Of a DNA stretch of 64,000 nucleotides, positions 7,351 to 62,370 are shown one piece after another (position 1 is the stretch's first letter; the number at the start of each line of letters is the position of its first letter). The DNA comes from an uncultured Candidatus Saccharibacteria bacterium (GTDB lineage: Bacteria > Patescibacteriota > Minisyncoccia > Phycocordibacterales > DATDWN01). Location of the stretch: contig CAZQVT010000001.1 in the NCBI GenBank assembly GCA_964596875.1, forward strand, positions 107,255-171,254, read 5' to 3'. Made by a program: the position numbers and the translations under genes. The notes under the pieces were generated by a model. It saw nothing but the letters and a program-made list of their open reading frames with translations, was not told the origin of the DNA and made no database searches.

Positions 7351-7501
7351 AATTTTCGTTTTATATTTTTCATCGCTACCAAAAATCGCCCCAGCGGGCG
7401 ATTTTTGCTGGTCCTCAACCCCTCGTCGTCAAGAACGGGGTGCCTTGACGACACCATGCTCGGGGTCTGCGGAGGCTCTGAAAAAAACAAAACGAAAATT
7501 C
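7350..7501 (+). repeat. TIR element family 2, copy A, carrying an intrinsic terminator hairpin (AAAAATCGCCCCAGCGGGCGATTTTT at 7381-7406)
   Basis: Perfect 12-13 bp TIRs AATTTTCGTTTT (7351-7362) / AAAACGAAAATT (7489-7500). Internal stems CGTCGTCAAG..CTTGACGAC and conserved CCATGCT..CTGCGGAG are shared with copies at 32954-33085, 37024-37131 and 43124-43262. Confidence 0.6.
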
Positions 7502-11973: not shown

Positions 11974-12678
11974 TTATTTACTGTATAGCAATGCGTCTAT
12001 GATATTTTTTACACTTTCGTAAGGTTGTGCACCTTGTACTACTGTTTTTGTTCCATCCTTTGAAACAATGATAGAGTTTGGAGTTCCTCTTCCTCCTGCT
12101 TTTACAGCATCATCGTAGTCTGCCTGAACTTTGTCGGCGTATTTGCCACTAGATAGACAAGTGTTAAATGCTTTTACATCCAGACCAATATCTTTTGCGA
12201 TTTTTGGAAGTTCTGACTCTGGTAGAGAGTTGTTTGAGTTTGTTCTAGCGTAAACAGTGTTTAGGTATTCCCAGAACTTTGTTGCGCCACCCAACTCGTT
12301 TGCACATTCTGTTGCTTCTGCTTCTTTACGAGCTTTTGGGTGTAGTTGGTCGATAGGGAAATGTCGATAAACCCAAGCAACTTTTCCATCTTTGCCGTAC
12401 TCGTCCATCATTTGTCGTAGTGTTGTGTGGAATTGTTTACAGAAAGGACACTCGGTATCAGAGTATTCTACAAACATAAGTTCTGCATTTGGATTTCCTA
12501 GGATGTGGTCTGCTTCTGTGATAGGTCGCATTTCTTCACCACCAGAAACCATTTGTGGAACAGTTTTTGCTTTCACTATTTCCTTTGCGTTTTGTAAGTT
12601 TGAATAATAAAAAGCCCCCGCTATTAAACCTCCCGCTATAACTATTGCCAATGGCACCGATAATTTTTCCATATTCAT
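11974..12678 (-). CDS. thiol:disulfide oxidoreductase, DsbA/thioredoxin-like with N-terminal membrane anchor
   Basis: CPFCKQFH active site (CxxC) and N-terminal TM helix. Confidence 0.75.
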   Translation of the reverse strand: MNMEKLSVPLAIVIAGGLIAGAFYYSNLQNAKEIVKAKTVPQMVSGGEEMRPITEADHILGNPNAELMFVEYSDTECPFCKQFHTTLRQMMDEYGKDGKVAWVYRHFPIDQLHPKARKEAEATECANELGGATKFWEYLNTVYARTNSNNSLPESELPKIAKDIGLDVKAFNTCLSSGKYADKVQADYDDAVKAGGRGTPNSIIVSKDGTKTVVQGAQPYESVKNIIDALLYSK

Positions 12679-12882
12679 CCCGTTTGAAATAGGAGATCGT
12701 TATGTATTTGCGACTCCTAATGTTGTAGTTAAACTTAACTGAAAATTTATAAATATTGATCTCCGTATATTTCTTACGGGATTCATATGAAGACATTCTA
12801 CTATGTAAGTCCGTGGTGTGCAATTTATAAAAATGGTGCTAAGATTAAATGGGCAGTTCGTTTGCCTCTCCGAGGAGGGTGC

Positions 12883-12975
12883 GTGGACGACGACACGATG
12901 CATCCCGAGCTGTGGGACCCAGTCTTCCGCACCGAGCGGGGGATCATGGACCCCAAGGCTGTGGAGATGACGTAG
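12883..12975 (+). CDS. GC-rich micro-ORF (30 aa, VDDDTMHPELWDPVFRTERGIMDPKAVEMT)
   Basis: GGAGGG RBS 3 nt upstream of GTG 12883. High-GC island. The 38-aa ORF at 13453 also begins M-x-DDD. Confidence 0.25.
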   Translation: MDDDTMHPELWDPVFRTERGIMDPKAVEMT

Positions 12976-13131
12976 GACCCTCTGGCGGGTCTAGTCTCTC
13001 CCTAACACAGAGAGGAGGGTAGACTATCGGAATGAGTCTCTGAGGGGGCAACCAGTACGTGTGTCGGCCAAAACACCTGGGAAGGGGGAGGACAGCAACT
13101 CTCCCGACCTGGGTTAACAAAGGATTCTCAT

Positions 13132-13194
13132 ATGCCTGGCAGTAAAGGAAGAGCGGTCGACATGGCCGCCAAGAAGACCGCCAAGAAGCGGTAG
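13132..13194 (+). CDS. GC-rich micro-ORF (20 aa, MPGSKGRAVDMAAKKTAKKR), Lys-rich
   Basis: AGGA RBS 7 nt upstream. Followed by hairpin GTCGCGttcGTCGCGAC and terminator GGGGGCACTGTGTGCCCCCTTTTTTT (13212-13250). Confidence 0.3.
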   Translation: MPGSKGRAVDMAAKKTAKKR

Positions 13195-13211
13195 TCGCGT
13201 TCGTCGCGACT

Positions 13212-13250
13212 GGAATATCCAGGGGGCACTGTGTGCCCCCTTTTTTTAAT
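13212..13250 (+). terminator. strong intrinsic terminator GGGGGCACTGTGTGCCCCC TTTTTTT
   Basis: 9-bp GC stem plus T7. Confidence 0.7.
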
Positions 13251-13351
13251 AAAATTTTCTATGCATTTTTCATACAGTTTCAAAAAAGCATTATTTTAAG
13301 CCATATTTTTAGTACACAAAAATGAAAATGGATTTTGCCATAAAAAGTACT

Positions 13352-13380
13352 TGACGTAAATAGTATAGTGTGCTAAGATA
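13352..13380 (+). promoter_or_regulatory. sigma70-like promoter TTGACG-17-TAAGAT
   Basis: TTGACGtaaatagtatagtgtgcTAAGAT, 70 nt upstream of the GC-rich ORF 13453. Confidence 0.5.
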
Positions 13381-13452
13381 TTTGGGAAGCCGTAAGCGTT
13401 GCAATTTAGCGCCCAAGGTTTGCACACCACAACTTCATCGAGAGGACACACC

Positions 13453-13569
13453 ATGATCGACGACGACAAGAGTCCGCCGGCCGCCGCCAACCTGATGGGG
13501 CCCTGCCGCCCCGGATATCTCGGCCTCAGCCACCAGATGCGCAACCACGCCGGCCACGTCGCCGCCTGA
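13453..13569 (+). CDS. GC-rich small ORF (38 aa, MIDDDKSPPAAANLMGPCRPGYLGLSHQMRNHAGHVAA)
   Basis: RBS GAGAGGA about 6 nt upstream and the promoter at 13352. Followed by a structured GC-rich tail and terminator-like GAGGGGGCC..GGCCGCCCTCTTTTCTTTT at about 13765-13800. Confidence 0.35.
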   Translation: MIDDDKSPPAAANLMGPCRPGYLGLSHQMRNHAGHVAA

Positions 13570-13825
13570 CACCGGCCGTCGGCGCCCGCGCTAGCGACTA
13601 GGTTCACGCTGTCGTGACCTAGATGTCGCCCAGCCAAGCGCGTCGCCTGCCCGTGTCGTTTCGCCCGCATCCCGCGGGCAACAGGAGTTCGCCGATGAAC
13701 CGTTCACCGCCCTGAAGTTTCGCCCAGCTAGTCTGGGCACCGTGGATACACAAGAGGGGGCCAGCGTCAGATACGCCGGCCGCCCTCTTTTCTTTTATAC
13801 AAAATTTTTTATTACCACGAATTAA

Positions 13826-13945
13826 GAACTGATAAATTTGAGTTCAGTTCTAGGCGGACGAGAAAAATGCGAGAAGCCTTACTAATAGTAAGGTGACGAG
13901 AATTTTTTGAAGTCCAACAACGAAATGAGCCAAATTTATAAGTTC
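13826..13945 (-). repeat. MITE/REP-like element family 1, copy R3 (inverted orientation), TIRs GAACTGATAAATTT / AAATTTATAAGTTC
   Basis: Reverse complement carries TTCAAAAAATTCTCGTCACCTTACTATTAGTAAGGCTTCTCGCATTT, matching the R1/R2 core. 13 of 14 bp in the TIR pair. Confidence 0.6.
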
Positions 13946-13947
13946 AA

Positions 13948-14529
13948 TTAGAACAGCGACTGAGTTTTGATCTCTTGAATGGGCTCCCAGTGTTTCGTAT
14001 CCAGTTTTATTTCTTTCGTAAACGGACCTTCTTTGAACATTAGTTTTTTATTTTTCATCGCAAACTCGTAAACATCTTTAGTGATTTTCACATCGTCAGT
14101 ACAGTATTTTCGTATTTTATCTATCTCACCACTTCGCCACCAAGCAACTGCTTCCAAACCATTGCCACTTTTTTGTGTGCCAAATGTACCTTGGGCTATC
14201 TGGTCTAGTTTCATTCTTCTACCATAGGCTTGTCGTATCTCTTTTAGCAAGTCCAATGAGTTTATTTGCAAAAGGTCACCTAAACCTGCTTTTTTGTAGT
14301 ACTTGTTTAGTAGGGGGATGTCAAAATGGTCACCATTGAAAGTGATAAGCTGTTCAGCCTTTTTAAATATAGGCCACATCCTTTCAAACTCTTCTTCGAT
14401 AAAAGTCTCGTATTTTTGTGTTTCGTAGTCAAAAACTCCAACAAGTGATATGTCCAGGTCTGCAGGGTCATTACTACCTACATCAGTAAAAATATTTTTA
14501 GTTTCTATATCGAAAACAACTTTTTTCAT
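13948..14529 (-). CDS. DEDD-type 3'-5' exonuclease (DnaQ/RNase H-like fold)
   Basis: Exo I FDIET, Exo II FNGDHFDIP and Exo III YCTDDV motifs. Confidence 0.65.
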   Translation of the reverse strand: MKKVVFDIETKNIFTDVGSNDPADLDISLVGVFDYETQKYETFIEEEFERMWPIFKKAEQLITFNGDHFDIPLLNKYYKKAGLGDLLQINSLDLLKEIRQAYGRRMKLDQIAQGTFGTQKSGNGLEAVAWWRSGEIDKIRKYCTDDVKITKDVYEFAMKNKKLMFKEGPFTKEIKLDTKHWEPIQEIKTQSLF

Positions 14530-16616: not shown

Positions 16617-16733
16617 ATGAAATAAATACACAGTTTTGTTTGTAATAACTATTTACACTATGAATCTCTTGTGATTAGATAATAAGTGGGGTGGTTTTCG
16701 TCGTGAAGGCCACAAAGCGCCAGTGGGGTGAGG

Positions 16734-17066
16734 ATGCCACGAGTTTCGCCTGTTGAAAGTATGGATGTTCGTCAGTGTGCCATCCATCTCGGTTCTCTCT
16801 GTCAGTCGTCCCTTCGTGCTTCGGGGGGTGACAAGCACCAGTATGTCCGTAGGCTTCGGCTGAACGGACTCGACGTGGGAACGTTCGACCTCATCAAGGA
16901 CGGCCGTTCTGACGAGGTGGATCGCCGGATTCTCGTCGTACTGTTCGGGTCGATGGACATCAGTCCGAAGGATCGGCCCGCAGTTCGCGAGATGATCAAG
17001 AAGGTGACCCCCGGGGGGTATCAGCGCGTGAAGGGTTCCCTCGCGCAACAGTCGGCTTCGGCCTAG
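16734..17066 (+). CDS. GC-rich hypothetical protein (about 111 aa)
   Basis: About 62% GC. RBS GGTGAGG abuts the ATG. Candidate promoter TTTACA-18-TAGATA at about 16649-16684. Intrinsic terminator downstream. Confidence 0.4.
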   Translation: MPRVSPVESMDVRQCAIHLGSLCQSSLRASGGDKHQYVRRLRLNGLDVGTFDLIKDGRSDEVDRRILVVLFGSMDISPKDRPAVREMIKKVTPGGYQRVKGSLAQQSASA

Positions 17067-17087
17067 CAAGGGCCACAAGCACACAAG

Positions 17088-17125
17088 GGGCGGGTCGCGT
17101 TCGCGCGACCACGCTCTTTTTCTTG
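17088..17125 (+). terminator. intrinsic terminator GGGTCGCGTTCGCGCGACC..CTCTTTTTCTT
   Basis: Its hairpin resembles GTCGCGTTCGTCGCGAC at 13196-13212. Confidence 0.6.
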
Positions 17126-17150
17126 TCAAAAATACACAAAGGTGGTTATA
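17116..17150 (+). promoter_or_regulatory. sigma70-like promoter TTGTCA-17-TTATAT
   Basis: TTGTCAaaaatacacaaaggtggTTATAT, upstream of ORF 17206. Confidence 0.5.
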
Positions 17151-17205
17151 TATCAAAGGAATTAGAGAGCAAGTCCGACTAACATCTTCCGCTAGGGGTA
17201 GAGAT

Positions 17206-17556
17206 TTGCCAATTTTGAGCCGTAGGGAAAAAATTCAGCGACACGCGAGTATCGTGAAGGGTCGTGTCGCCGAACTCAAGGAAAAGGGGGGCCTCGACAG
17301 AGTCCTGGAAGTACTGGGGGGAAACGAACTCATCACTCGGCTCGGCTCTGATGGAGCACCGTGCGTGAGTACCGTGGATGCTCGTATGGTGTATCTCGAG
17401 CTGGGGCTGGAGGGAGAACTTCTCAACGAGGTCCTCATTCTCCACACGCAATTTCGCCTGAATCGTCCGAACAAACCACCACAGAAGAGGCTTCCGCAGC
17501 CATTCGTGCGTCGTCGGCCAGGCACTATGCCGGTCAGACCCTGTCGTCACAGCTAG
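17206..17556 (+). CDS. GC-rich hypothetical protein (116 aa)
   Basis: High GC. Follows the promoter at 17116. Terminator AGGCTCGAAGG..CTCGAGCCTTTGTTCGTTATTTTTT at about 17583-17640. Confidence 0.4.
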   Translation: MPILSRREKIQRHASIVKGRVAELKEKGGLDRVLEVLGGNELITRLGSDGAPCVSTVDARMVYLELGLEGELLNEVLILHTQFRLNRPNKPPQKRLPQPFVRRRPGTMPVRPCRHS

Positions 17557-17624
17557 CTCCTCTCGTCGTTCTTCGTTTCGAAAAAGGCTCGAAGGTGTTC
17601 GCCACACCCTCGAGCCTTTGTTCG

Positions 17625-19403
17625 TTATTTTTTATAATTTTTCTTTCTAAGTCTTACAGATTTTGGAGTAATCTCAATGTATTCATCGTCTGACATTATT
17701 TCCATGGCTTTCTCAATATCTAGTGGAAGAGTCGCAGCAAGGTATACCTTGTCGTCAGAACCAGAGGCTCGCATATTTGTAAGTTGTTTACCTTTTGTTG
17801 GGTTTACAGTAAGGTCATCTCCCTTTGATACGTTTCCGATAACCATTCCTTCGTAAACTTCAACTCCTGGGTCAATGTAAAGTGTGCCTCTTTGTTGTAG
17901 GTTATCTAGTGCAAAAGCAAGAGCTTTTCCTTTTTCCATAGAAACCATCGAGCCAAATTTTGTTTTCTTTATTTCACCAACGTATTCTCGAAACTCTAGA
18001 AATCTTGAAGAAAGAATTCCTAGACCTTTTGTGTCCACTACGAACTGACCTCTGTAACCAAGTAGTCCTCGTGTTGGGATTTCAAAAATAAGTCTTTGTG
18101 TGCCGTGACCTTGTTTTACATTCATTAGTAGACCTTTTCTTTCTGTAAGTCTTGAGATAATAGAACTAGCAAGTTCATCTGGAACGTCGATAGTAACTTC
18201 TTCAAAAGGTTCTGTCTGAACGCCGTTTATTTCTTTTATGATAACTTGCGGTTGTGATACCTGCATTTCGAAACCTTCTCTTCGCATATTTTCAAGAAGC
18301 ACTGCGATATGAAGTTCTCCACGTCCGTACACAGTAAAGTATTCGTTGTTGTTCCAGTCTACTTTTAGTCCAACGTTTATTTCTAGTTCTTTTTCTAGTC
18401 TGTCGCGGATTTGTCTACCAGTTACAAACTTTCCTTCACGTCCAGCGAAAGGTGAGTCGTTAACCAAAAAGTTTAGAGAGATAGTTGGCTCATCGATGTT
18501 GATAGATGGAAGAGACTCTTGAGAGTCGTTTTCGCAGATAGTGTCTCCAATATAAATATTTGGAAGTCCGGCTATCATCACGATATCTCCAGCGATTGCT
18601 TCCGCTGTTTCGATCCTTTTTGTTCCTTCAAAAGTGAACATTTTCGTAAGTCTGCCACTGAAAGTTTGGCCACTTGGTTGTTTTACGAAAACTGTTTGGC
18701 CACTTTTTACTTTTCCGTCGTAGATTCGGCAAACAGCCTCTCTTCCAAGAAAGTTATCATATGCAAGGTTAAAAGATTGCATTCGTAGAGGTGCTGAAAC
18801 ATCTGCTTTTGCAGGAGGCACAAGTTTTAGAATAGTTTCAAGTAGTGGAGTAAGGTCAGTGCTTTCGTCAGTAAGTTTCATTTTTGCGATACCTTGTCTA
18901 CCGATAGCAAAAACTGTAGTAAAGTCTAGTTGCTCGTCATTTGCACCTAGTTCTAGGAAAAGTTCCAGCACCATTTCGTGTACTTCGTCTGGTCTTGCTG
19001 CTGGTTTGTCGATTTTGTTTATGATAACGATAGGTTTTAGTCCTAGTTCAAGTGACTTTTTCAAAACGAAACGTGTTTGAGGCATTGGACCTTCTTGGGC
19101 ATCTACCAGAAGAAGCACAGTATCGATAGATCGCAATACTCGTTCTACTTCAGAACCGAAGTCAGAGTGTCCAGGTGTATCTACAATGTTAATTTTTGTA
19201 ACCTCTCTTCCAGAATCTTTAGCAGGGTAGTATACAGAAGTATTTTTCGCGTAAATAGTAATACCTCTCTCTTGCTCTAAGGCATTAGAGTCCATAGTCG
19301 CACCTTCTTCTGTAGTCATGCCTGTTTGTTTCATTAAGGCATCTGTCAGAGTTGTTTTTCCGTGGTCCACGTGGGCGATGATTGCTATGTTTCTTATTTC
19401 CAT
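17625..19403 (-). CDS. typA: translational GTPase BipA/TypA
   Basis: G1 [19 protein letters not shown]. The 592-aa length fits BipA. Confidence 0.9.
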
Positions 19404-25114: not shown

Positions 25115-25612
25115 TCATTCCATACATCTGCGGTGTATGGTCCGGATTGAAAAGAACCACAATAGTCCAGTCGTTAGTGTTCCCACCAGGACCGAAACCA
25201 TTTTGGGCCAGCCCAGTTTCCACCAAATGTGCACGCCGTCGTGGATGTGTGCATACGCGGGTAGGAAATCGGGCTGAGGCAGGAACCTAAACTTTCCCCA
25301 GACCTGTACTAGGTCCGGTAGTAGCCCAGCAATGAGGCAGAGTGCCAGCAGGACTCGGTAGTCGGGAAGCCTGCGTCCGACTCGATACGTAACCCATGTC
25401 GACAGAGAGATGTCGCCGAGTGCCCACCAGAAGCCAAGCGAAATCGGGCTGGTGTAGTTATCTCCAGCAACGAGCCCAGGTTCGAGATGGGGGATTAGGT
25501 CAAGTGGTAGATGTGCCACAAGGACCAGGATTGGAAGCCAGACTAGTGCCGTTCTGGGTTTGGTCTTAATCCCTAGGGCGATTGCTGGCAGTATGTGCGC
25601 GCTCGGTAGCAT
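25115..25612 (-). CDS. GC-rich polytopic membrane protein, YdjM/DUF457-like (second, foreign-composition paralog)
   Basis: About 60% GC. VAHLPLDLIPH motif. Hairpin CCGCTGGAgacgaagttcgtTCCAGCGG downstream at about 25062-25089. Confidence 0.4.
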   Translation of the reverse strand: MLPSAHILPAIALGIKTKPRTALVWLPILVLVAHLPLDLIPHLEPGLVAGDNYTSPISLGFWWALGDISLSTWVTYRVGRRLPDYRVLLALCLIAGLLPDLVQVWGKFRFLPQPDFLPAYAHIHDGVHIWWKLGWPKMVSVLVGTLTTGLLWFFSIRTIHRRCME

Positions 25613-25617
25613 GTGAC

Positions 25618-25824
25618 CTACTCGATCCTGTGGAGCTCGCGGTCCATGGCGTAGATCGTTTTTTCTTCGTCTGTTTTGACCAGGTGGACTCCACCCGAGC
25701 CGATGCAGTTTTTCGCGACCACCCTGACCCTGCGACCATCGAGGTCCTTATTTCTGCCAAGCCCGGCGACGTTCTGCCGGAAAGTGTAGTAATTACCCTG
25801 GACGATCTCGTCGTTTGTGGCCAT
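25618..25824 (-). CDS. GC-rich small protein (68 aa), possible DUF2945/Tudor-like
   Basis: RBS GGAGGG 3 nt before the ATG. ...GRRVRVVAKNCIGSGGVHLVKTDEEKTIYAMDREL. The family guess is weak. Confidence 0.35.
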   Translation of the reverse strand: MATNDEIVQGNYYTFRQNVAGLGRNKDLDGRRVRVVAKNCIGSGGVHLVKTDEEKTIYAMDRELHRIE

Positions 25825-25899
25825 GCGCCCTCCGAGAGATAGCCTATATTAAAAAGGTTGGAAATTCAAATACACAAAAAGCGCCTATGGCGCTTTTCT

Positions 25900-25974
25900 G
25901 GCTCCGGCGGTAGGGATCGAACCTACGACCAATCGCTTAACAGGCGATTGCTCTACCACTGAGCTACACCGGAA
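25900..25974 (-). tRNA. tRNA-Asn (GTT)
   Basis: Reverse complement TCCGGTGTAGCTCAGTGGTAGAGCAATCGCCTGTTAAGCGATTGGTCGTAGGTTCGATCCCTACCGCCGGAGCCA folds as a cloverleaf with anticodon GTT and CCA encoded. Confidence 0.9.
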
Positions 25975-26089
25975 TAATAAGATAATATCAAAAATAACAC
26001 AGAATGCAATAAAAAATTTTACAAAGCGAAAGGCGAGGACGGGGTCCTCGCCTGGTCGCAACGGGTCTGTTTCAGTCCGTGCGACGTGA

Positions 26090-26596
26090 TTACTTCCTTT
26101 CCCACGGCTGGCGCTCTGCCAGCCTGTTGATCACCTCGATCAAGTTCCTCCGGTTGGCGCGCTCGTTCAGCAGTCCGAGTCGGTGGATCTGCTGATACTG
26201 CCAGATGACCTCCTCGACGGGAGCGCGGTACTCCTGCTTCACGACGTAGAGGCCGAGGTCTTCCGGAATGGTCTTGTCACCTTCGATCACGCTGTGCCCG
26301 TTCAGGACGTACTTGTGGTCCAGGTCGGGGTTCGCAGCGAACCAGCGGTACTCGGTCAGTTGTTCCTCCGAGACGTTCGGGAAGTTGCGCCTGGCCGACA
26401 TGAGTTCGGCCAAGATGAGCGCGTAGTCCCTGTTGTCGAGCTTGACCTCGTCGAGAACGAGCATCGGGTACGGCTCCGTGTGGGTGCTGTTGTTCCGAAT
26501 CGTGATGATTCGGTCTCGGGTAGCCTGAGCTTCCGAGCAGCCCGACACGACGACGATAAGGAAGAGAGCGGTTGCGACACGGGTGAAAGTGTCCAT
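26090..26596 (-). CDS. GC-rich lipoprotein (signal peptide MDTFTRVATALFLIVVVSGC, lipobox VSGC), unknown function
   Basis: About 58% GC. RBS AGGAGG 3 nt before ATG 26596. The ORF track allows an upstream start at 26638. Confidence 0.5.
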   Translation of the reverse strand: MDTFTRVATALFLIVVVSGCSEAQATRDRIITIRNNSTHTEPYPMLVLDEVKLDNRDYALILAELMSARRNFPNVSEEQLTEYRWFAANPDLDHKYVLNGHSVIEGDKTIPEDLGLYVVKQEYRAPVEEVIWQYQQIHRLGLLNERANRRNLIEVINRLAERQPWERK

Positions 26597-26733
26597 ATGC
26601 CTCCTAGGCAGTGGGTTGTCCATATATAATAGTATCATAAATAAGTAATATTGTCAAATATAAATATGTATTGTGCCGTAGTAAACTATGTTAAAATTAT
26701 TCCATTAATATTAATCATTTTTAATTCAAACAT

Positions 26734-32953: not shown

Positions 32954-33085
32954 ACAATCTTTTCAGAGCGAGCTTTAAAAATTCCAGCGAATTTTTAAAG
33001 CCTGGTCCTCGGCCTCCATCCGTCAAGAAGGGGCGCCTTGACGGAGCCATGCTGGAGGCACTGCGGAGTCTCAGAAAAGATTGTG
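32954..33085 (+). repeat. TIR element family 2, copy B
   Basis: TIRs CACAATCTTTTCAGAG / CTCAGAAAAGATTGTG. Hairpin TTAAAAATTCCAGCGAATTTTTAA. Stems CCGTCAAG..CTTGACGG and GCCTCC..GGAGGC. CCATGCT..CTGCGGAGTC. Confidence 0.6.
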
Positions 33086-35474: not shown

Positions 35475-35505
35475 ACTTTTTTCTTAAACCATGTTATAAA
35501 TACCT

Positions 35506-35721
35506 CTGGACGCGGAAGTGAACCACTCGTTTCAGCCGCACGAGTGTCACGCCCACTTTTGCGGTTAGAAGGGGTTTAGCCGGCCTCTTCGGCCCTCGCG
35601 AGCTGTTCTTTCCGCGTCTACTTGTAATGTTGGACTGCTTTCTGCGCCGCACGCCACCCCACGCAGTCAGATACGACGCCGCCACCTTCGGCCACCCCTC
35701 ACCAGGGTGGCCCTTTTTTTT
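35506..35721 (+). ncRNA. GC-rich structured leader or small RNA between rseP and proS, with its own promoter and intrinsic terminator
   Basis: Promoter TTAGAC-17-TTATAA (35471-35499). Long-range stem GACGCGGAA (35520-35528) / TTCCGCGTC (35607-35615). Internal hairpins. Terminator GGCCACCCctcaccaGGGTGGCC plus T8 (35690-35721), 34 nt before the proS ATG. Confidence 0.45.
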
Positions 35722-35755
35722 GCTCAAAATATTTTTTTGCTGTAGTATTGTCTTT

Positions 35756-37000
35756 ATGAAACAAACACAACTTTTTACAAAAACACGCAAGGAGGCACCA
35801 GCAGATGAGGCTTCAAAAAACGCCCAACTTTTAATACGCGGAGGTTATGTCCACAAAGAACTCGCTGGCGTTTACTCGTATTTACCTTTAGGTCTTAGAA
35901 CACTAAATAAGATTGTTGCAGTAATTCGTGATGAAATGAACAAGATAGGTGGTCAGGAGTTGCTTATGTCTGCACTTCAAGATAAAGAACTTTGGTCACG
36001 AACAGACAGATGGGACGATGCAAAAGTAGACAACTGGTTTAAAACAGAACTTAAAAGTGGTGGAGAAACTGGTCTTGGTATTACACATGAAGAACCACTA
36101 ACTCGTATCATGAGTGAGCATGTTTCGTCTTATAGAGATTTACCGAAACTTGCTTATCAGTTTCAAAACAAGTTTAGAAATGAACTTAGAGCAAAGTCGG
36201 GTATTATGCGAGGAAAGGAGTTTATGATGAAAGACATGTATTCTTTCTCTAGAGATTATGATGCTCACAATATGGATTATGACAAAATACGTGGTGCTTA
36301 TATTAAAATCTTTGAACGCCTAGGTCTTGGTGATAAAACATATGTAACATACGCAGATGGGGGAATCTTTGCAGATTTTTCTGAGGAATTTCAAACTCTA
36401 ACAGAATCAGGTGAAGATATTGTATATGTACACGAGGGTAAAAAAATTGCTGTAAACAAAGAGGTATATACGGACGAAAGTCTTGCAAAACTCGGTGTGT
36501 CAAAGGATGAGTTGGTTGAAAGAAAGGCTGTAGAAGTCGGTAATATTTTTCATCTTGGTACAAGATTTTCTGATGCGATCGGTTTGAAATACAAAGACGA
36601 GGACGGTAGTGAAAAATCTGTTGTGATGGGTAGTTATGGAATCGGTCCAACTAGAGTTATGGGTACAATCGTCGAAGTTTTATCGGATGAAAAAGGAATA
36701 GTTTGGCCAAAAGAAGTCGCACCGTTTGCTATACACCTTGTTCGCCTAGGTGTAAATGATGCAACAGTAAAATATGCTGATGACTTGTATGAAAAACTAA
36801 AACAAAATGGCGTAGAAGTTCTTTACGACGATAGAGACTTGCGACCAGGAGAAAAGTTTGCCGACTCTGACCTTATTGGTATACCTGTTCGTTTTGTTGT
36901 AAGTGACAAAACTGTCGCCGAAGACAAAGTTGAAGTAAAAATGCGAACAGAATCAGATTCAAAACTTGTGAGTGTAGATGAGGCCTTGAAATTAATTTAA
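35756..37000 (+). CDS. proS: prolyl-tRNA synthetase
   Basis: MKQTQLFTKTRKEAPADEASKNAQLLIRGGYVHK start and class II motifs. The track start 35627 is rejected because it reads through the terminator. Confidence 0.85.
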   Translation: MKQTQLFTKTRKEAPADEASKNAQLLIRGGYVHKELAGVYSYLPLGLRTLNKIVAVIRDEMNKIGGQELLMSALQDKELWSRTDRWDDAKVDNWFKTELKSGGETGLGITHEEPLTRIMSEHVSSYRDLPKLAYQFQNKFRNELRAKSGIMRGKEFMMKDMYSFSRDYDAHNMDYDKIRGAYIKIFERLGLGDKTYVTYADGGIFADFSEEFQTLTESGEDIVYVHEGKKIAVNKEVYTDESLAKLGVSKDELVERKAVEVGNIFHLGTRFSDAIGLKYKDEDGSEKSVVMGSYGIGPTRVMGTIVEVLSDEKGIVWPKEVAPFAIHLVRLGVNDATVKYADDLYEKLKQNGVEVLYDDRDLRPGEKFADSDLIGIPVRFVVSDKTVAEDKVEVKMRTESDSKLVSVDEALKLI

Positions 37001-37023: not shown

Positions 37024-37131
37024 TTTTTATCGCAACCTTAAAAACTCCAGCGAGTTTTTAAGGCCAGTCCTCGGCCAAAGTCGTCAAGATGGAGTGCCTT
37101 GACGACACCATGCTTTTGGCCTGCGGGGGCG
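37024..37131 (+). repeat. TIR element family 2, copy C
   Basis: Hairpin TTAAAAACTCCAGCGAGTTTTTAA. Stems GTCGTCAAG..CTTGACGAC and GGCCAAA..TTTGGCC, the latter covarying with GCCTCC/GGAGGC in copy B. CCATGCT..CTGCGGGGGCGCT. Confidence 0.6.
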
Positions 37132-43262: not shown

Positions 43263-43317
43263 GGCGATATTTATTTATAATATTTACAAAATAATTTTAG
43301 TGTGGTATCGTCAGAGG

Positions 43318-43600
43318 TGGAAAGGGGTGGCCTACGGAAAGCCCAGCCTCGGCTGGGTCTACCGGTGTCCTCCTCCTAAGGGTCATCCCTTTCCGTTTAT
43401 CGGGGTGCAGGGACTGCCTGGTGGGTTCCCAAAGAATGCCTCAGGGATGTTGTGTTCCTAGGGGCTCATTTGGTCCTTGCACCTCGATATCGAGGCACGG
43501 GAGTAGTCGCGTCGGGTTGGTTTCACAAAGTCGCGTATAACTACCAACCCGATTGGCTCCCGTGCCTCGAAAACTCAATGCACCCTCGGTGCATTTTTTC
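43318..43600 (+). ncRNA. GC-rich structured RNA (about 280 nt) of unknown class, with own promoter and terminator
   Basis: Promoter TTTACA-17-TATCGT (43283-43311). Stems GGCACGGGAG/CTCCCGTGCC, GGGTTGGT/ACCAACCC and CCAGCctcgGCTGG, plus alternative GGAAAGGG/CCCTTTCC pairings. Terminator ATGCACCCTCGGTGCAT plus T6 (43578-43599). No credible ORF. Confidence 0.45.
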
Positions 43601-43625
43601 ATATAATTTTTCAAGAATTCAAATT

Positions 43626-43654
43626 TGACAGTGACAATAAATAGTGTTATTATA
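43626..43654 (+). promoter_or_regulatory. sigma70-like promoter TTGACA-17-TATTAT for the amidase gene
   Basis: TTGACAgtgacaataaatagtgtTATTAT, then RBS AAGGAGG 4 nt before ATG 43695. Confidence 0.55.
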
Positions 43655-43694
43655 AACAAAGACTGACTTACATCCTGTAGGTCAAGGAGGCTCC

Positions 43695-44453
43695 ATGAGA
43701 TTGCTGATGCTTGTTCTTTTGGTCGCGTTGGCAGTCTTGCCTACCGAGACCAAAGAACAGAGAAAGTCACGACCCGCCTTGAGTGGTTGGGTTGTGGTTC
43801 TGGATCCAGGCCACGGTGGCGTTGATCCCGGTTCGTCCGGGACATTCAATGGCAAACGTGTGGTCGAGGATGAATACGTCTACGACGTAGCTCTTCGTGC
43901 CAAAAGGATTATCCGCTCAATGGGCGGACTATCCTTCCTGACGATCCAGGACAAAGTCGGCGAAAGATCATTGCCGGCACAATCAGTGTTTCCGGACGTT
44001 CGTTCGGAAACCTACACAGGAACATCTGTGGCTGTCCGTGCTGGTTCCGATGGTCTTAATCGTCGGCTTGCTTATGGCAACAGTATTAGCCGTAAGTATC
44101 CAAAGCATAGACAGGCTTGGATATCCATTCACTTCGATGTCCTCGGCAAAAACCGAGTCATCGAGGGGGTTCGGATCATCAAGGCAGAGTCGAGCAACAG
44201 GCTGGCGGATGCTCTCGAAGCGTCCTTTGCAAAGTACGACCGTTTGCGCGACTACGCGCCGGTTGTACAAAGCGGAGACCCGCAGTTTGGGATGCGCAAC
44301 CTGTTCATCCTGAATGGCAACAACAGGATTCGTGAAAAGGTGCTTGTTGAGTTGGGAAACTTCAACAACACAACAGACGTGTGGAGGGTTCGTAACTCCG
44401 TCACGCGTGAAGCGTACGCAAGAGCGATCGCAGAAGCCTTGCTACGCTGGTAA
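43695..44453 (+). CDS. N-acetylmuramoyl-L-alanine amidase (Amidase_3 family), secreted, GC-rich
   Basis: Signal peptide. VVLDPGHGGVDPG, ISIHFD and VLVELGNFNN (LVExGFxSN-like) motifs. About 58% GC. Confidence 0.75.
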   Translation: MRLLMLVLLVALAVLPTETKEQRKSRPALSGWVVVLDPGHGGVDPGSSGTFNGKRVVEDEYVYDVALRAKRIIRSMGGLSFLTIQDKVGERSLPAQSVFPDVRSETYTGTSVAVRAGSDGLNRRLAYGNSISRKYPKHRQAWISIHFDVLGKNRVIEGVRIIKAESSNRLADALEASFAKYDRLRDYAPVVQSGDPQFGMRNLFILNGNNRIREKVLVELGNFNNTTDVWRVRNSVTREAYARAIAEALLRW

Positions 44454-44461
44454 GGCGGGGA

Positions 44462-44541
44462 AATCCCGCACAGGTCGTCCGAAGGACGGCCTTTCTCGTT
44501 TATAAATTTTTACCAACTTGGACATCCGATGTCCAAGTTGG
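44462..44541. terminator. hairpin cluster: GCGGGGAAATCCCGC, GGTCGTCCgaaGGACGGCC plus TTTCTCGTTT, and a perfect 29-bp palindrome CCAACTTGGACATCCGATGTCCAAGTTGG (44513-44541)
   Basis: Seen directly. Lies between the amidase and mraZ. Confidence 0.55.
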
Positions 44542-49516: not shown

Positions 49517-49619
49517 CTATACAGTAATTCCTATTCGTTATGAGTAGGTGGCTCGCAAGAGCAACGAGGCAGTATTTCCCACCTCATCAAAGGGAAATGT
49601 TCGTCACAAGGAGGCCGTT

Positions 49620-49991
49620 ATGGCCACCACGCAGAGTCATGGAATCACTTCGGGAACTCTGGAGTTGCAGAGACGTCGGATTGTCGCGGGCCCATCCCGC
49701 GAATGTCTGTTCGACTCTCTTCGGCTCGGGACCTTCCGTAACAGGATGGCCATTGCCTTCACGGTCGCGCCATCGCACCTGACTGGCAGAAACCTGGCAG
49801 ATGGTCGGCGGTTCGTTCCCGGCAACCTGATGTTCCACGCCACGGTTGTCATGATCCGTCCGGAAGACGGAAGTGGCTATAACTGGCTGTTCGAACTCAG
49901 CGACGAAAATCGGACGCTCGGTTCAGACAAGTTGCGTGGGTACATGAACACGAACCTTCGCACGGGCTGGGTCGAGCCGATCTTCGACTAG
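49620..49991 (+). CDS. GC-rich hypothetical protein (123 aa)
   Basis: RBS AAGGAGG 5 nt before the ATG. About 60% GC. Terminator CAGGCGCACttccttcgggatGTGCGCCTG plus T9 at 50007-50046. Confidence 0.45.
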   Translation: MATTQSHGITSGTLELQRRRIVAGPSRECLFDSLRLGTFRNRMAIAFTVAPSHLTGRNLADGRRFVPGNLMFHATVVMIRPEDGSGYNWLFELSDENRTLGSDKLRGYMNTNLRTGWVEPIFD

Positions 49992-50126
49992 ACCGCCTCC
50001 GCTTCACAGGCGCACTTCCTTCGGGATGTGCGCCTGGTTTTTTTGTAGGGGAATTATTTTGAGATGCCGTGGGATAGAGAGTTCAAGTTTTTTTACTTAG
50101 TTAATTTACTGTGCTAGCATTTGTAA

Positions 50127-50870: not shown

Positions 50871-51067
50871 AATGTAAATTCTAAAAATCTTGAGAAAACT
50901 TCGTCCTAGTCACGTATCAAAGTCTGCTGACTTTGTACGCGACCCCACCTCACGCCGACGCGTTCCGGTCGTTCGTTTGGGTCCCAGCCCAAACTTCACC
51001 GCCATACGATAAGGCCATGAGGAACAAGGTGATAATAACATTTATAGAGAAACTTTCAAACGTTGTT

Positions 51068-51097
51068 TTGACAGTGATGAAAAATGTGTGCTATAGT
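51068..51097 (+). promoter_or_regulatory. sigma70 promoter TTGACA-18-TATAGT
   Basis: Upstream of a structured leader (CAACCTACC..GGTAGGTTG) and ORF 51161. Confidence 0.5.
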
Positions 51098-51160
51098 TTT
51101 GAGTGGACAACCTACCGCATGTGCAGTCGCACAAGGCTTCGGGTAGGTTGCGAGGGGATT

Positions 51161-51286
51161 ATGCTCGAGAGTTTCAGACTCGTTTTTGAGGGCGTGGTTC
51201 AGTATCTTCCACCCCCTCAGGTTCTCATCGGATGTCTCATCGCGGGTGAAATGGTTCGTGACCTGCATGACCATTTCGTACGGTAA
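51161..51286 (+). CDS. GC-rich micro-ORF (41 aa, MLESFRLVFEGVVQYLPPPQVLIGCLIAGEMVRDLHDHFVR)
   Basis: RBS GAGGGG 3 nt before the ATG. Terminator CCCCGTG..CACGGGGTTTTT at 51311-51353. Confidence 0.35.
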   Translation: MLESFRLVFEGVVQYLPPPQVLIGCLIAGEMVRDLHDHFVR

Positions 51287-51359
51287 CCTCCGCACGAACA
51301 ACAACATCGGCCCCGTGGGTGTGTGCAATGCGCGCACGCTCACGGGGTTTTTCGTATAC

Positions 51360-51388
51360 TTGACAGAATAGGGTTATATGGTGTATAA
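51360..51388 (+). promoter_or_regulatory. consensus sigma70 promoter TTGACA-17-TATAAT
   Basis: TTGACAgaatagggttatatggtgTATAAT. Followed by a 5' UTR with hairpins CAGTGGTAA..TTACCACTG and CTTGCatatcGCAAG. Confidence 0.6.
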
Positions 51389-51451
51389 TAATGGCAGGAC
51401 AGTGGTAAACTCTTGCATATCGCAAGGTGTTACCACTGCCGGGAGAACACC

Positions 51452-51559
51452 ATGTTCACACCCTTCGAACTCACGTTGACCCTCACGATCTTCGTCGGTC
51501 TCGGCGTCGTCCAGGCGCTCGCCAGGCGCGACCTCGTTCTGTCCATCCGGAAGCGCTAG
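51452..51559 (+). CDS. 35-aa hydrophobic peptide (MFTPFELTLTLTIFVGLGVVQALARRDLVLSIRKR), type I toxin-like
   Basis: Single TM helix plus basic C-terminus. Structured 5' UTR, RBS GGGAG, and terminator GAGCCTCTACGC..GCGTAGAGGCTC plus T-run at 51580-51620. Confidence 0.4.
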   Translation: MFTPFELTLTLTIFVGLGVVQALARRDLVLSIRKR

Positions 51560-51665
51560 ACGCACCTCCGGCCCACATCGAGCCTCTACGCACAACATCG
51601 CGTAGAGGCTCATCTTTTTTATATGATATTTAAAAAAAACAAATAAAATGATATATTAGGAAAAT

Positions 51666-55493: not shown

Positions 55494-55543
55494 ATTATGG
55501 GCCGATCGTGGCGTTCGACCAGCCCATAAACCGCAGGTTTGCA

Positions 55544-55750
55544 TTAGGCACCTCGAGCTTTCTTCAGAAGTTCGAGTCGGAGTCCTCTCGCGATTTCTCT
55601 CACATCCATCCTGATCCTTTCGTTCTCCTCGGTGTCGAGGGAGTTTCTGCGGAACGCTTCCTCGAAGATTTCACCGAGCAGGTTTGGGTTCGCTCCGCGT
55701 CTTATGAACTCTCTGTTCACTTCGCGAGCGATTTTTTCGGCGAGACTCAT
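55544..55750 (-). CDS. GC-rich small helical protein (68 aa)
   Basis: RBS AAGGAGG 5 nt before ATG 55750. About 60% GC. Second gene of a two-gene minus-strand cassette. Confidence 0.4.
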   Translation of the reverse strand: MSLAEKIAREVNREFIRRGANPNLLGEIFEEAFRRNSLDTEENERIRMDVREIARGLRLELLKKARGA

Positions 55751-55842
55751 AGGCACCTCCTTTCCGACATTATTATCGCACAATTTTTTGCATTGAAATA
55801 GGGGCGCGCCTTTCGACGTGCCCCCAGTTCGGCGAGGAGGAA

Positions 55843-62293: not shown

Positions 62294-62370
62294 AGCAAAG
62301 CCTCCAATAGAGAATTGTATCAAGCAACAGTTATTTAGTCAAGTCAAGTATAAATAATATTGTGGAAACA

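What the first reader, a model, noticed from the sequence alone, without database searches (positions are those of the whole stretch)
12860..13800. Paired GC-rich blocks encoding micro-ORFs that both begin M-x-DDD, plus a 20-aa Lys-rich peptide, with extensive hairpins
ORF 12883-12975 ((M)DDDTMHPELWDPVF...) and ORF 13453-13569 (MIDDDKSPPAAANLMGPCRPGY...) share an unusual acidic DDD N-terminus. Each is followed by long GC-rich hairpin-laden tails (AGTCT..AGACT; CTAGGT..ACCTAG; GCCCGCatccGCGGGC) and strong terminators. Between them MPGSKGRAVDMAAKKTAKKR carries its own RBS. They could be leader peptides, attenuators, RiPP-like precursors or sRNAs with dual function.
Basis: seen in the sequence. 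Interest (0 to 1): 0.55.

Follow-up and report, generated by a model that had tools for sequence, protein, structure and literature searches.

The report
Small RNAs carrying ribosome-stalling mini-ORFs
Two GC-rich blocks in an AT-rich candidate-phyla-radiation bacterial genome are separate small transcripts carrying tiny reading frames. One frame, six codons reading Met-Asn-Arg-Ser-Pro-Pro, is kept across related genomes and matches a motif known to stall ribosomes, which points to an undescribed translation-sensing RNA rather than ordinary genes.

Summary
The window is a Patescibacteria (Paceibacteria-like) chromosome with 39.6% GC. Positions 12851-13247 and 13385-13796 are two independent units of 60-65% GC on the + strand. 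Each has a TGCTAAGAT extended -10 promoter and an intrinsic terminator. They lie in a variable hot spot between dsbA and a convergent exonuclease-hisS operon.

Block 2 has positional counterparts in about 20 related genomes. Its recurrent coding feature is an unreported mini-ORF at 13695-13715, MNRSPP*, with a strong Shine-Dalgarno sequence. Related loci encode M-x(1-3)-R-[S/G/A]-P-P with differing Arg, Ser and Pro codons (11 found against 0.04 in shuffles). RSPP, RGPP and RAPP are published ribosome-arrest motifs.

Block 1's 30-codon ORF is kept in the two closest relatives, with an in-frame indel and synonymous changes. The Lys-rich ORF is unique to this window.

Neither block matches Rfam, Pfam, NCBIfam, phage or plasmid collections. 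There is no downstream same-strand gene and no RiPP enzyme nearby. Best reading: fast-evolving, leader-peptide-like small RNAs whose tiny ORFs engage or stall ribosomes. What that stalling controls is unknown.

The parts
12837..12845 (+). Block-1 extended -10 promoter element TGCTAAGAT. The inferred transcription start is about G12851-12852.
   Evidence: It is one of only two exact copies in the window. Equivalent TGnTAnnAT elements precede the block-1 homologues in L004 and L083.
12851..13247 (+). Block-1 transcription unit, about 397 nt and 59.7% GC.
   Evidence: Composition is. Fold z = -3.7. Homologues occur only in L004 and L083, plus a 3' remnant in L088. The consensus structure has 8 pairs that keep pairing after changes on both sides.
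12872..12975 (+). Shine-Dalgarno GAGGAGGG (12872-12879) and the 30-codon ORF 12883-12975, reading (M)DDDTMHPELWDPVFRTERGIMDPKAVEMT.
   Evidence: The ORF is conserved in L004 (MIDDDTFFPEIWDPVLKDPGIMGPKVVETT) and L083 (MGRRLSQLEQWDPIVRCRRGIMDPKVVETN). All three share the same TAG stop position, and the only indel is 3 nt. In every pairwise comparison most changes fall at codon position 3, and there are more synonymous codon changes than in the other two frames. GC3 is 90%, against 29-36% in the flanking genes.
12975..13024 (+). Post-stop hairpin GGACCC..GGGTC (12975-12991) and a pyrimidine/GGAGG hairpin (12989-13024) that ends in the conserved GAGGAGGGTAGAC.
   Evidence: RNAalifold pairs 147-164 include a U-A to C-G compensatory change. 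Pairs 174-192 hold in all three sequences. The 5' leader UUUGCCU pairs with GGGUAGA in all three.
13040..13210 (+). Window-specific insertion carrying the Lys-rich ORF 13132-13194 (MPGSKGRAVDMAAKKTAKKR) and the hairpin 13194-13210.
   Evidence: This stretch aligns only to gaps in L004 and L083 (columns about 243-385). BLASTN and tBLASTN find no counterpart in 160 loci.
13221..13247 (+). Block-1 intrinsic terminator AGGGGGCACTGTGTGCCCCC followed by T7.
   Evidence: Found by the terminator scan. It is about 90% conserved in L004, L083 and L088.
13291..13310 (+). Remnant of the 3' end of uppP (TTATTTTAAGCCATATTTTT).
   Evidence: In L005, L007, L008, L010, L011 and L013 this motif is the last codons plus stop of an intact uppP gene directly upstream of the cassette. 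uppP itself is absent from the window.
13351..13379 (+). Block-2 promoter: TTGACG, a 17-nt spacer, and the extended -10 TGCTAAGAT. The inferred transcription start is about 13385.
   Evidence: Found by the promoter scan. The same TTGAC[AG]-N17-TGnTAnnnT arrangement precedes the cassette in about 18 related loci.
13385..13796 (+). Block-2 transcription unit, about 412 nt and 65% GC.
   Evidence: An independent Logan contig (L001) is 100% identical over the whole unit. Sequence homologues are L083, L004 and L088. Positional and architectural homologues occur in L005, L007, L008, L010, L011, L013, L082, L084, L096, L103, L106 and L108.
13453..13569 (+). ORF1 of 38 codons (MIDDDKSPP...HVAA), with Shine-Dalgarno GAGAGGAC at 13440-13447.
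   Evidence: A Shine-Dalgarno-led sORF of 17-55 codons occupies this position in every cassette, but its sequence is very variable. One subfamily keeps M-x-x-[FM]-R-S-D-[QH] with Ser encoded by TCC, TCG or AGC. Several ORF1s carry HGPP, WSPP or KSPP at codons 4-10.
13598..13679 (+). Central hairpins: CTAGGT..ACCTAG (13598-13622) and GCCCGCATCCCGCGGGC (13663-13679).
   Evidence: The consensus fold of four sequences shows compensatory changes in the first hairpin. The second hairpin is invariant.
13682..13715 (+). Shine-Dalgarno CAGGAG (13682-13687) and the six-codon mini-ORF 13695-13715: ATG AAC CGT TCA CCG CCC TGA, reading MNRSPP*.
   Evidence: Counterparts: L083 MIRSPP* and MNTRSPPM*; L004 MNARSPPT..; L010 MERSPPK*; L088 ..GRSPP*; L082 and L102 MDRGPP..; L084 MDRGPPQ*; L096 MTRAPP*. 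Arg is encoded by CGT, CGA or AGA, Ser by TCA, TCG or TCT, and Pro by CCG or CCC. Eleven such ORFs occur on this strand of the hot spot, against 0.04 in shuffles and 0 on the other strand.
13722..13738 (+). Hairpin GCCCAGCTAGTCTGGGC between the mini-ORF and the terminator.
   Evidence: It is conserved in L083 as GCCCAGCTCGTCTGGGC and absent from L004 and L088.
13754..13796 (+). Block-2 intrinsic terminator: a GC-rich stem followed by TTTTCTTTT.
   Evidence: The stem appears in the predicted fold. A terminator lies 36-85 nt after the Pro-Pro codons in all counterparts.

Best explanation
The region holds two autonomous, terminator-bounded small RNAs of about 400 nt each. They belong to a fast-evolving, lineage-specific set of cassettes in a hot spot between the 3' end of the exonuclease-hisS operon and uppP/dsbA in Paceibacteria-like Patescibacteria.

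They are leader-peptide-like RNAs bearing small ORFs, not ordinary protein genes and not purely non-coding RNAs.

**Shown**
- Promoters and terminators are conserved.
- Block 2's recurrent coding element is a six-codon mini-ORF with a strong Shine-Dalgarno sequence, M-x-R-S-P-P. It sits between a hairpin and the terminator and is conserved at the amino-acid level.
- Block 1 carries a 30-codon ORF conserved in frame, embedded in conserved RNA secondary structure.

**Inferred**
- R-[S/G/A]-P-P is a RAPP-like motif. A ribosome that initiates on the mini-ORF therefore stalls, or drops off, at Pro-Pro with a nascent chain of only about 5 residues.
- A ribosome held there still covers the start region, so one ribosome is held per RNA.
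- That occupancy remodels or stabilises the 3' part of the RNA. The RNA would then act as a cis-acting sensor of translation status, for example EF-P or ABCF activity, or prolyl-tRNA supply.
- The M-x-DDD starts and the xSPP or HGPP motifs in the upstream ORFs are further hard-to-translate elements of the same logic.
- The GC-richness reflects selection for RNA structure and stability. One counterpart, L096, is AT-rich yet keeps the mini-ORF.

The downstream output is unknown.
For: - **Independent units.** The exact TGCTAAGAT -10 occurs only at the two blocks. There is a TTGACG-17 promoter and terminators. The same promoter and terminator architecture is found in about 18 syntenic loci.
- **Mini-ORF.** In six-frame translation of 1.28 Mb, 12 of the 13 Shine-Dalgarno-led short ORFs carrying [RH][SGA]PP lie in this hot spot. 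The thirteenth is antisense inside hisS. There are 11 observed against a mean of 0.04 in 300 local shuffles, and 0 on the reverse strand. All codon variation at Arg and Pro-Pro is synonymous. The second residue is only S, G or A.
- **Literature.** RAPP and RGPP give robust arrest that EF-P does not relieve. RSPP is arrest-permissive and was recovered in random screens. These tetrapeptides are among the most depleted in bacterial proteomes, including Patescibacteria (PMC12992588). Within this window they occur in no real gene.
- **Block-1 ORF.** It has the same stop position in all three sequences, a 3-nt indel, an excess of third-position and synonymous changes, and a conserved SD plus GTG/ATG start. 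The competing frame has no start codon downstream of the inferred transcription start.
- **RNA structure.** Fold z-scores are -3.7 and -2.1. Compensatory pairs are present.
- **Early acidic runs.** These pause or destabilise ribosomes (PMC11282234).
Against: - No expression or translation data exist.
- Published work states that a RAPP-like core alone is insufficient for arrest and needs an adjacent N-terminal segment (PMC12992588). Here only 1-3 residues precede the core.
- Consecutive Pro residues can cause peptidyl-tRNA drop-off (PMC8934632), so drop-off rather than stable arrest is possible for so short a chain.
- No same-strand gene follows, so there is no obvious regulated target.
- Several positional counterparts lack any RAPP-like motif: L008, L086, L095, L103, L013 and L003.
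- The cassette is absent from some relatives, for example L009, where the gap is only 65 nt. It is therefore dispensable.
- Block-1 evidence rests on three sequences, and the codon-position signal is modest.
- The loci are homologous, so the counts are not independent events.
Confidence: 0.55

Rival explanations
1. These are conditional terminators. Ribosome behaviour on the mini-ORF or ORF1 decides whether transcription reads through the terminator into the downstream AT-rich hairpin element and, as antisense RNA, into the convergent exonuclease-hisS operon. This would be leader-peptide attenuation with an antisense output.
For: The mini-ORF always lies 36-85 nt upstream of an intrinsic terminator. 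In every locus the unit points at the 3' end of exo-hisS. A conserved long hairpin that folds better on the same strand follows the terminator in many loci.
Against: A ribosome on a six-codon ORF ends at least 20 nt short of the terminator stem, and I found no convincing conserved antiterminator pairing. ORF1 His content, about 4%, is not clearly above the composition expectation by my own count. Several loci (L005, L007, L008, L088, L082) lack the downstream hairpin.
Confidence: 0.15
2. These are purely non-coding structured sRNAs. The small ORFs are incidental open frames of the kind GC-rich sequence readily produces.
For: The blocks are GC-rich and strongly folded. Hairpins are conserved with some compensatory changes. 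ORF1 sequences are barely conserved. GC-rich DNA has few stop codons, and two overlapping frames are open in block 1.
Against: The R-x-P-P mini-ORF keeps its peptide through switches between the CGN and AGA Arg codon families and through third-position changes, always behind a strong Shine-Dalgarno sequence. There are 11 such ORFs against 0.04 in shuffles. The Ser in ORF1's RSDQ motif switches between TCN and AGC codons. The indels are in frame.
Confidence: 0.13
3. The ORFs encode functional micro-proteins, for example secreted or regulatory peptides or RiPP-like precursors. The RNA features serve only expression.
For: The block-1 peptide has a conserved C-terminal half, W-D-P...G-I-M-D/G-P-K-V/A-V-E. 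Other GC-rich islands in the window carry real small-protein genes.
Against: The peptides match no family, and the protein-database search with the 62-aa extended block-1 frame found no homologue. They have no signal peptide or hydrophobic segment. No modifying enzyme or transporter is nearby. ORF1 peptides differ almost completely between relatives. A six-residue MNRSPP product is an unlikely effector.
Confidence: 0.12
4. The blocks are debris of foreign GC-rich DNA, or pseudogene remnants inserted at a recombination hot spot, with no function.
For: The hot spot is highly variable: the gap ranges from 65 nt to 2.8 kb, and cassettes are gained and lost. uppP has been lost here, leaving a remnant. 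The block-1 peptide weakly resembles the C-terminal DTFFPE motif of DHFR.
Against: Native-type promoters, Shine-Dalgarno sequences and terminators are conserved. The cassette is retained at the same position across relatives whose HisRS identity to this window falls to about 57-65%. Phage and plasmid collections give no match. The DHFR resemblance covers 9-17 residues at E > 0.1.
Confidence: 0.05

Closest known systems
RAPP-type ribosome arrest peptides (ApdA, ApdP, ApcA; SecM RAGP)
   Same: The core tetrapeptide is R-[A/G/S]-P-P. The second position is restricted to exactly the small residues that experiments tolerate (PMC12992588). The motif lies at or near the C-terminus of a short ORF with its own Shine-Dalgarno sequence. 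The motif is otherwise avoided in the proteome.
   Different: Known members are roughly 100-200-residue secretory or membrane proteins. Their N-terminal segment supports arrest, and their stall unmasks a downstream gene (sec, yidC, copper or TonB-related). Here the ORF is 6-15 codons with 1-3 residues before the core, has no localisation signal, has no downstream gene, and is followed by a terminator.
MgtL-type leaders with intrinsic ribosome destabilisation, and EttA-dependent early acidic motifs
   Same: Acidic runs (M-x-DDD, M-A-E/D-D-D), partly interspersed with Pro, lie within the first codons of a short ORF. This is the context shown to pause or destabilise ribosomes (PMC11282234 and the Chadani 2017 work cited there).
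   Different: MgtL controls mgtA downstream, and no such gene exists here. The DDD start is not kept in orthologous cassettes of L083 and L088.
Short regulatory leader peptides and minigenes (ErmCL/ErmBL, TnaC, lambda bar minigenes); from general knowledge
   Same: Very short ORFs whose nascent chain or termination context holds the ribosome, with consequences for RNA structure or stability.
   Different: Those leaders sit in the 5' leader of a regulated gene, or act through Pth limitation. Here the ORF sits near the 3' end of a stand-alone RNA.
Dual-function sRNAs (SgrS/SgrT, RNAIII/hld, SR1/SR1P); from general knowledge
   Same: A stand-alone promoter-to-terminator transcript of a few hundred nucleotides that combines conserved structure with a translated small ORF.
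   Different: No base-pairing target or seed region has been identified. Sequence turnover is far faster. The conserved ORF encodes a stalling motif rather than an effector peptide.

Membership tests
RAPP-like ribosome arrest peptides | C-terminal core R-A/G(/S)-P-P (or RAPG/RAGP) | tested here: met
   The window encodes RSPP at 13701-13712. RSPP, RGPP or RAPP occurs in 10 further cassettes, with only synonymous variation at the R, P and P codons.
RAPP-like ribosome arrest peptides | An adjacent N-terminal segment in the exit tunnel that supports arrest; the core alone is reported insufficient (PMC12992588) | tested here: not met
   Only 1-3 residues precede the core (M-N, M-I, M-N-T, M-D, M-T). 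L088 has 10.
RAPP-like ribosome arrest peptides | Encoded upstream of, and controlling, a downstream gene on the same transcript | tested here: not met
   A terminator follows within 36-85 nt. The next gene is the convergent exonuclease.
RAPP-like ribosome arrest peptides | Demonstrated elongation arrest at the Pro-Pro codons | not testable with these tools
   Requires toeprinting, a PURE translation system or ribosome profiling.
Leader-peptide transcription attenuators | Short ORF followed by alternative antiterminator and terminator structures | tested here: inconclusive
   The ORF plus terminator are present. No conserved alternative pairing was recognised in 11 modules.
Leader-peptide transcription attenuators | Structural genes downstream on the same strand | tested here: not met
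   No + strand gene lies before truB at 15810, and reaching it would mean reading antisense through exo and hisS.
IRD / EttA-type early-acidic leader peptides (MgtL-like) | Run of acidic residues within the first 20-30 codons | tested here: met
   (M)DDDT at 12883 and MIDDDK at 13453. Also L004 MIDDDT, and the extra middle cassettes (between the block-1 and block-2 homologues) of L004 and L083, which start MAEDDQ and MADDDQ.
IRD / EttA-type early-acidic leader peptides (MgtL-like) | Motif conserved in orthologues and coupled to a downstream gene | tested here: not met
   L083 block 1 starts MGRRLSQ. Block-2 ORF1 in L004, L083 and L088 starts MPNFRSDQ or MHRFRSDQ. There is no downstream gene.
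RiPP precursor peptides | Adjacent modifying enzyme, protease or transporter genes, and a leader/core organisation | tested here: not met
   The neighbours are a DsbA-like thioredoxin, an RNase H-like exonuclease, HisRS, TruB and an AddA-like helicase. The peptides match no family.
Any curated RNA family (Rfam 15), including tmRNA | Covariance-model match; for tmRNA, a tRNA-like domain plus a tag ORF | tested here: not met
   No Rfam hit at gathering thresholds, and only chance-level hits at E <= 10 over 12650-13950. Eight related loci gave none either. ARAGORN finds no tmRNA.
Dual-function sRNAs | Autonomous transcript with a conserved small ORF | tested here: met
   Promoter, terminator and sORF are conserved.
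Dual-function sRNAs | Base-pairing regulatory target | not tested
   No target search was done. A BLASTN comparison (word size 7, E <= 0.01) found no similarity to the other GC-rich islands of the window.

The most novel reading that the evidence does not exclude
These cassettes define a new class of stand-alone 'ribosome-trap' RNAs in candidate-phyla-radiation bacteria. Their selected function would be to capture a single ribosome on a minimal RAPP-type ORF of six codons, the shortest natural arrest ORF of this class. Auxiliary early-acidic or xGPP ORFs would contribute. The RNA would use ribosome occupancy as a read-out of translation capacity to set its own fate, or to gate antisense read-through into the exo-hisS operon.
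Probability: 0.25. Interest if true: 0.8.

Novelty: new variant of a known kind. Interest (0 to 1): 0.6.

Why it matters
RAPP-like arrest sequences are so far known only inside annotated proteins of about 100-200 residues that monitor protein export or regulate a downstream gene. A six-codon R-S/G/A-P-P ORF conserved at the peptide level, inside an autonomous RNA with no downstream gene, would do three things.

- It would test directly whether the core motif can act with almost no N-terminal context.
- It would add a regulatory RNA type to reduced, poorly understood Patescibacteria genomes, where almost no small RNAs are described.
- It would show that GC-rich islands in AT-rich genomes of these bacteria flag unannotated transcription units that gene callers miss. 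The independent contig L001 carried no gene call over block 2.

If the mini-ORF does not stall ribosomes, the finding reduces to a lineage-specific small ORF/sRNA hot spot of modest interest.

Tried and rejected
- **Rfam.** Gathering thresholds on the whole window, E <= 10 on 12650-13950, and E <= 1 on eight related loci gave only chance-level hits.
- **tmRNA.** I considered this because ORF1 ends ...HVAA. ARAGORN found none, there is no tRNA-like domain, and the ORF has its own SD and ATG.
- **Homology between the two blocks.** They are not alignable beyond the -10 element and GACGACGACA.
- **Protein-database search.** The 62-aa extended frame found nothing.
- **Pfam and NCBIfam on eight peptides.** No matches.
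- **Phage and plasmid BLASTN.** No match.
- **DHFR lead.** tBLASTN hits reading 'DADTFFPEI' in Saccharibacteria loci are the C-terminal part of a 164-aa ORF that I judged to be DHFR from its sequence. The match covers 9-17 residues at E > 0.1, so I treated it as coincidence.
- **Alternative frame in block 1** (MGSSFASPRR...GDHGPQ...). It is open in all three sequences, but its only start lies upstream of the inferred transcription start, and it carries fewer synonymous changes.
- **His-codon attenuator for the neighbouring hisS.** By my own count, ORF1 His content is about 4%, against about 3% expected from composition. Not convincing.
- **nhmmer profiles of both blocks against the window and 161 loci.** No further copies.
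- **Other RAPP-like short ORFs elsewhere in the window.** None in a plausible context.
- **Antiterminator pairing between the mini-ORF and the terminator.** No conserved pairing seen.
Full report
**Context.** The window is a bacterial chromosome segment with 39.6% GC. It carries rpoC, dnaG, rpoD, an AddA-like helicase, a DsbA-like protein, an RNase H-like exonuclease, hisS, truB and bipA. The closest public relatives are Patescibacteria metagenome-assembled genomes labelled Parcubacteria, Paceibacterota or 'Saccharibacteria', with HisRS identity of 62-86% in genome contigs. Metagenome contigs reach 89% HisRS identity to this window and 90% exonuclease identity. The finding lies in the 1,269-nt gap between dsbA (11974-12678, - strand) and the exonuclease gene (13948-14529, - strand).

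**Observation.** The two blocks are 60% and 65% GC, against 37-40% for the flanking genes. Each is preceded by an exact TGCTAAGAT extended -10 element. These are the only two exact copies in 64 kb. Block 2 also has a TTGACG -35 box at 17-nt spacing. Each block ends in a hairpin plus T-run on the + strand. Predicted folding is stronger than in dinucleotide shuffles, with z = -3.7 and -2.1. The exact decamer GACGACGACA occurs only twice in the window, directly after the two start codons. Apart from the -10 element and this decamer, the two blocks do not align. Rfam finds nothing here or in eight related loci, and ARAGORN finds no tmRNA.

**Comparative frame.**
- The order truB / hisS-exo / gap / dsbA-helicase is conserved in dozens of loci.
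- The gap itself is a hot spot. It is 65 nt in L009, about 255 nt in L015, L016 and L019, and 0.3-2.8 kb elsewhere.
- In many relatives the gap holds uppP followed, on the same strand, by one small unit next to the exonuclease stop. That unit has its own TTGAC[AG]-N17-TGnTAnnnT promoter and its own terminator, and it is usually 60-77% GC.
- The window has lost uppP but keeps its last codons at 13291-13310, just upstream of the block-2 promoter. Block 2 is therefore the positional orthologue of that unit.
- The three nearest relatives (L083, L004, L088) align to block 2 at the sequence level. L083 and L004 also carry block 1, plus a third cassette between the two blocks.
- An independent Logan assembly (L001) is identical over block 2 but carries no gene call there.

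**Block 2.**
- ORF1 (13453-13569) is matched everywhere by a Shine-Dalgarno-led ORF of 17-55 codons, but the peptides differ almost completely.
- One subfamily (L004, L083, L088, L010, L103) shares M-x-x-[FM]-R-S-D-[QH]. Arg is encoded by CGC, CGT or CGG and Ser by TCC, TCG or AGC, which argues for translation. The length difference among close relatives is an 18-nt in-frame indel.
- The best-conserved element was not in the finding. It is a hairpin (GCCCGCATCCCGCGGGC, 13663-13679), then CAGGAG, then ATG AAC CGT TCA CCG CCC TGA (13695-13715, MNRSPP*), then a terminator.
- Equivalent mini-ORFs are MIRSPP* and MNTRSPPM* (L083), MNARSPPT.. (L004), MERSPPK* (L010), ..GRSPP* (L088), MDRGPP.. (L082, L102, L084) and MTRAPP* (L096).
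- The ORF1s of L005 and L011 carry HGPP at codons 4-9.
- Arg is CGT, CGA or AGA. Ser is TCA, TCG or TCT. Pro is CCG or CCC. The second motif residue is only S, G or A.
- In six-frame translations of 1.28 Mb (the window plus 160 loci), 13 Shine-Dalgarno-led short ORFs carry [RH][SGA]PP within 12 codons of the start. Twelve of them lie in this hot spot on this strand. The thirteenth is antisense inside hisS.
- Within about 40 kb of hot-spot sequence there are 11, against a mean of 0.04 (maximum 1) in 300 locally shuffled sets, and none on the opposite strand. The loci are homologous, so this shows retention rather than independent origin.
- L096 is an AT-rich minimal version: promoter, a leader of about 75 nt, GAGGAGGAG-N5-ATG ACA AGA GCT CCG CCG TAA, then a terminator. 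GC-richness is therefore not the essential property.

**Meaning of the motif.** Fujiwara et al. (EMBO J 2025, PMC12992588) report four relevant points.
- RAPP and RGPP give robust translation arrest that EF-P does not relieve.
- RSPP is an arrest-permissive variant, also recovered in earlier random screens, as was HGPP.
- These tetrapeptides are among the most depleted in bacterial proteomes, with Patescibacteria included in their analysis.
- The core alone is insufficient and needs an adjacent N-terminal segment.

In this window no real gene contains such a tetrapeptide in frame. The residues allowed at motif position 2 here therefore coincide with the experimentally tolerated ones. The context differs, however: a 6-codon ORF with no signal sequence and no downstream gene. 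With so short a chain, peptidyl-tRNA drop-off at consecutive Pro is an alternative outcome (PMC8934632).

**Block 1.**
- The 30-codon ORF is present in L004 and L083 with the same TAG stop position, one 3-nt indel, and a conserved SD plus GTG/ATG start.
- In all three pairwise comparisons the annotated frame has the most third-position changes (10, 14 and 17). It also has the most synonymous codon differences in two comparisons and ties frame 2 in the third (3-5 against 1-3). The signal is modest.
- A second frame is open in all three sequences. Its only start codon lies 2-4 nt after the -10 element, upstream of the likely transcription start.
- The ORF is embedded in conserved structure. The 5' leader pairs with the conserved GGAGGGUAGA. 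A hairpin directly after the stop shows a compensatory U-A to C-G change. A pyrimidine/GGAGG hairpin follows.
- The Lys-rich ORF (13132-13194) lies in a stretch of about 150 nt that is absent from both orthologues and from all other loci. It is not conserved.

**The DDD starts.** M-x-DDD or M-A-[E/D]-D-D opens five cassette ORFs in three genomes: window block 1, window block-2 ORF1, L004 block 1, and the middle cassettes of L004 and L083. L004 block 1 and window block 2 share the 16-mer ATGATCGACGACGACA, which suggests module exchange. Orthologous cassettes also exist without it (L083 block 1; block 2 of L004, L083 and L088). Early acidic runs are documented to pause or destabilise ribosomes while the exit tunnel is still empty, as with MgtL and the EttA targets (PMC11282234). 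The feature therefore fits the same 'hard-to-translate leader' theme, but it is not required.

**Interpretation.**
- *Shown:* these are autonomous units, some RNA structure is conserved, and R-[S/G/A]-P-P is retained at the peptide level.
- *Inferred:* ribosomes initiate on these ORFs and stall or abort, and that occupancy controls the RNA.
- *Unknown:* the output. No same-strand gene follows. Downstream lie a long AT-rich hairpin element and the convergent exo-hisS operon.

Rivals are ranked in the Rival explanations section: conditional read-through with an antisense output, purely non-coding sRNA, functional micro-proteins, and foreign debris.

- A RiPP reading is rejected for lack of any enzyme context and of any family match.
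- A foreign origin is disfavoured by the native promoters, by long positional retention, and by the absence of phage or plasmid matches.

**Verdict.** This is a real, previously undescribed, lineage-specific set of small RNAs bearing small ORFs. Its closest mechanistic analogue is the RAPP-like arrest peptide, but it fails two defining features of that family: it has almost no N-terminal context and no downstream regulated gene. I rate it a new variant of a known kind, with interest 0.6.

Noticed in passing
window 13826-13945: An AT-rich, long imperfect hairpin of about 120 nt lies between the block-2 terminator and the exonuclease stop. It is 86-89% identical in L004. Comparable long hairpins occupy the same place in about 12 loci, and extra copies lie elsewhere (L007 2351-2394 and 8393-8485; L009 2637-2744). 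The predicted fold energy is always lower on the window + strand. Rfam gives no hit. It may be a dispersed palindromic repeat or an unknown sRNA.
   Followed up: partly
window 35493-35747 (+): A GC-rich structured leader of about 210 nt ends in the terminator GGCCACCC..GGGTGGCCC-T8, directly upstream of a class II aminoacyl-tRNA synthetase gene (35756-37000; tRNA-synt_2b plus HGTP_anticodon). It looks like a T-box-type or other attenuator, but Rfam does not recognise it.
   Followed up: partly
window ~7425-7485, ~32975-33075, ~37035-37130 (+): A three-copy GC-rich element of about 100 nt (77-84% identity) contains the hairpin GTCGTCAAG..CTTGACGAC. The copies sit upstream of unrelated genes: an ORF at 7534, a DNA polymerase III delta'-like gene at 33124, and mreB at 37167. 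Rfam gives no hit.
   Followed up: partly
window 16685-17628, 25160-26628, 43289-44508, 49590-50073, 50888-51627, 55493-55951, 62027-62319: About a dozen further islands of 52-58% GC lie in this 39.6% GC genome. Several are GC-rich genes with their own promoter, SD and terminator: a lipoprotein (26090-26638, -), a membrane protein (25115-25612, -), a 100-aa ORF (16764-17066, +), a 62-aa ORF (62108-62293, -) and an Amidase_3 gene (43695-44453, +). All but the amidase have no Pfam match. The 16.7-kb island is about 79% conserved in L083 but mostly absent from L004.
   Followed up: partly
window 57991-58238 (-): A GC-rich island of about 250 nt that looks like a structured RNA. It has no convincing ORF and no Rfam or ARAGORN match.
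   Followed up: no
window 13291-13310 and whole window: uppP (undecaprenyl-diphosphatase) sits between dsbA and the cassette in most relatives. It is absent from this 64-kb window. Only its last codons and stop codon remain, upstream of the block-2 promoter.
   Followed up: yes
L004 7240-7680 (-) and L083 4750-5170 (-): A third cassette lies between the block-1 and block-2 homologues. It encodes a 62-69-aa, highly acidic, low-complexity ORF (MAEDDQSQTTDQPAAEE...). An RSPP mini-ORF and a terminator of its own follow. The window has no counterpart.
   Followed up: partly
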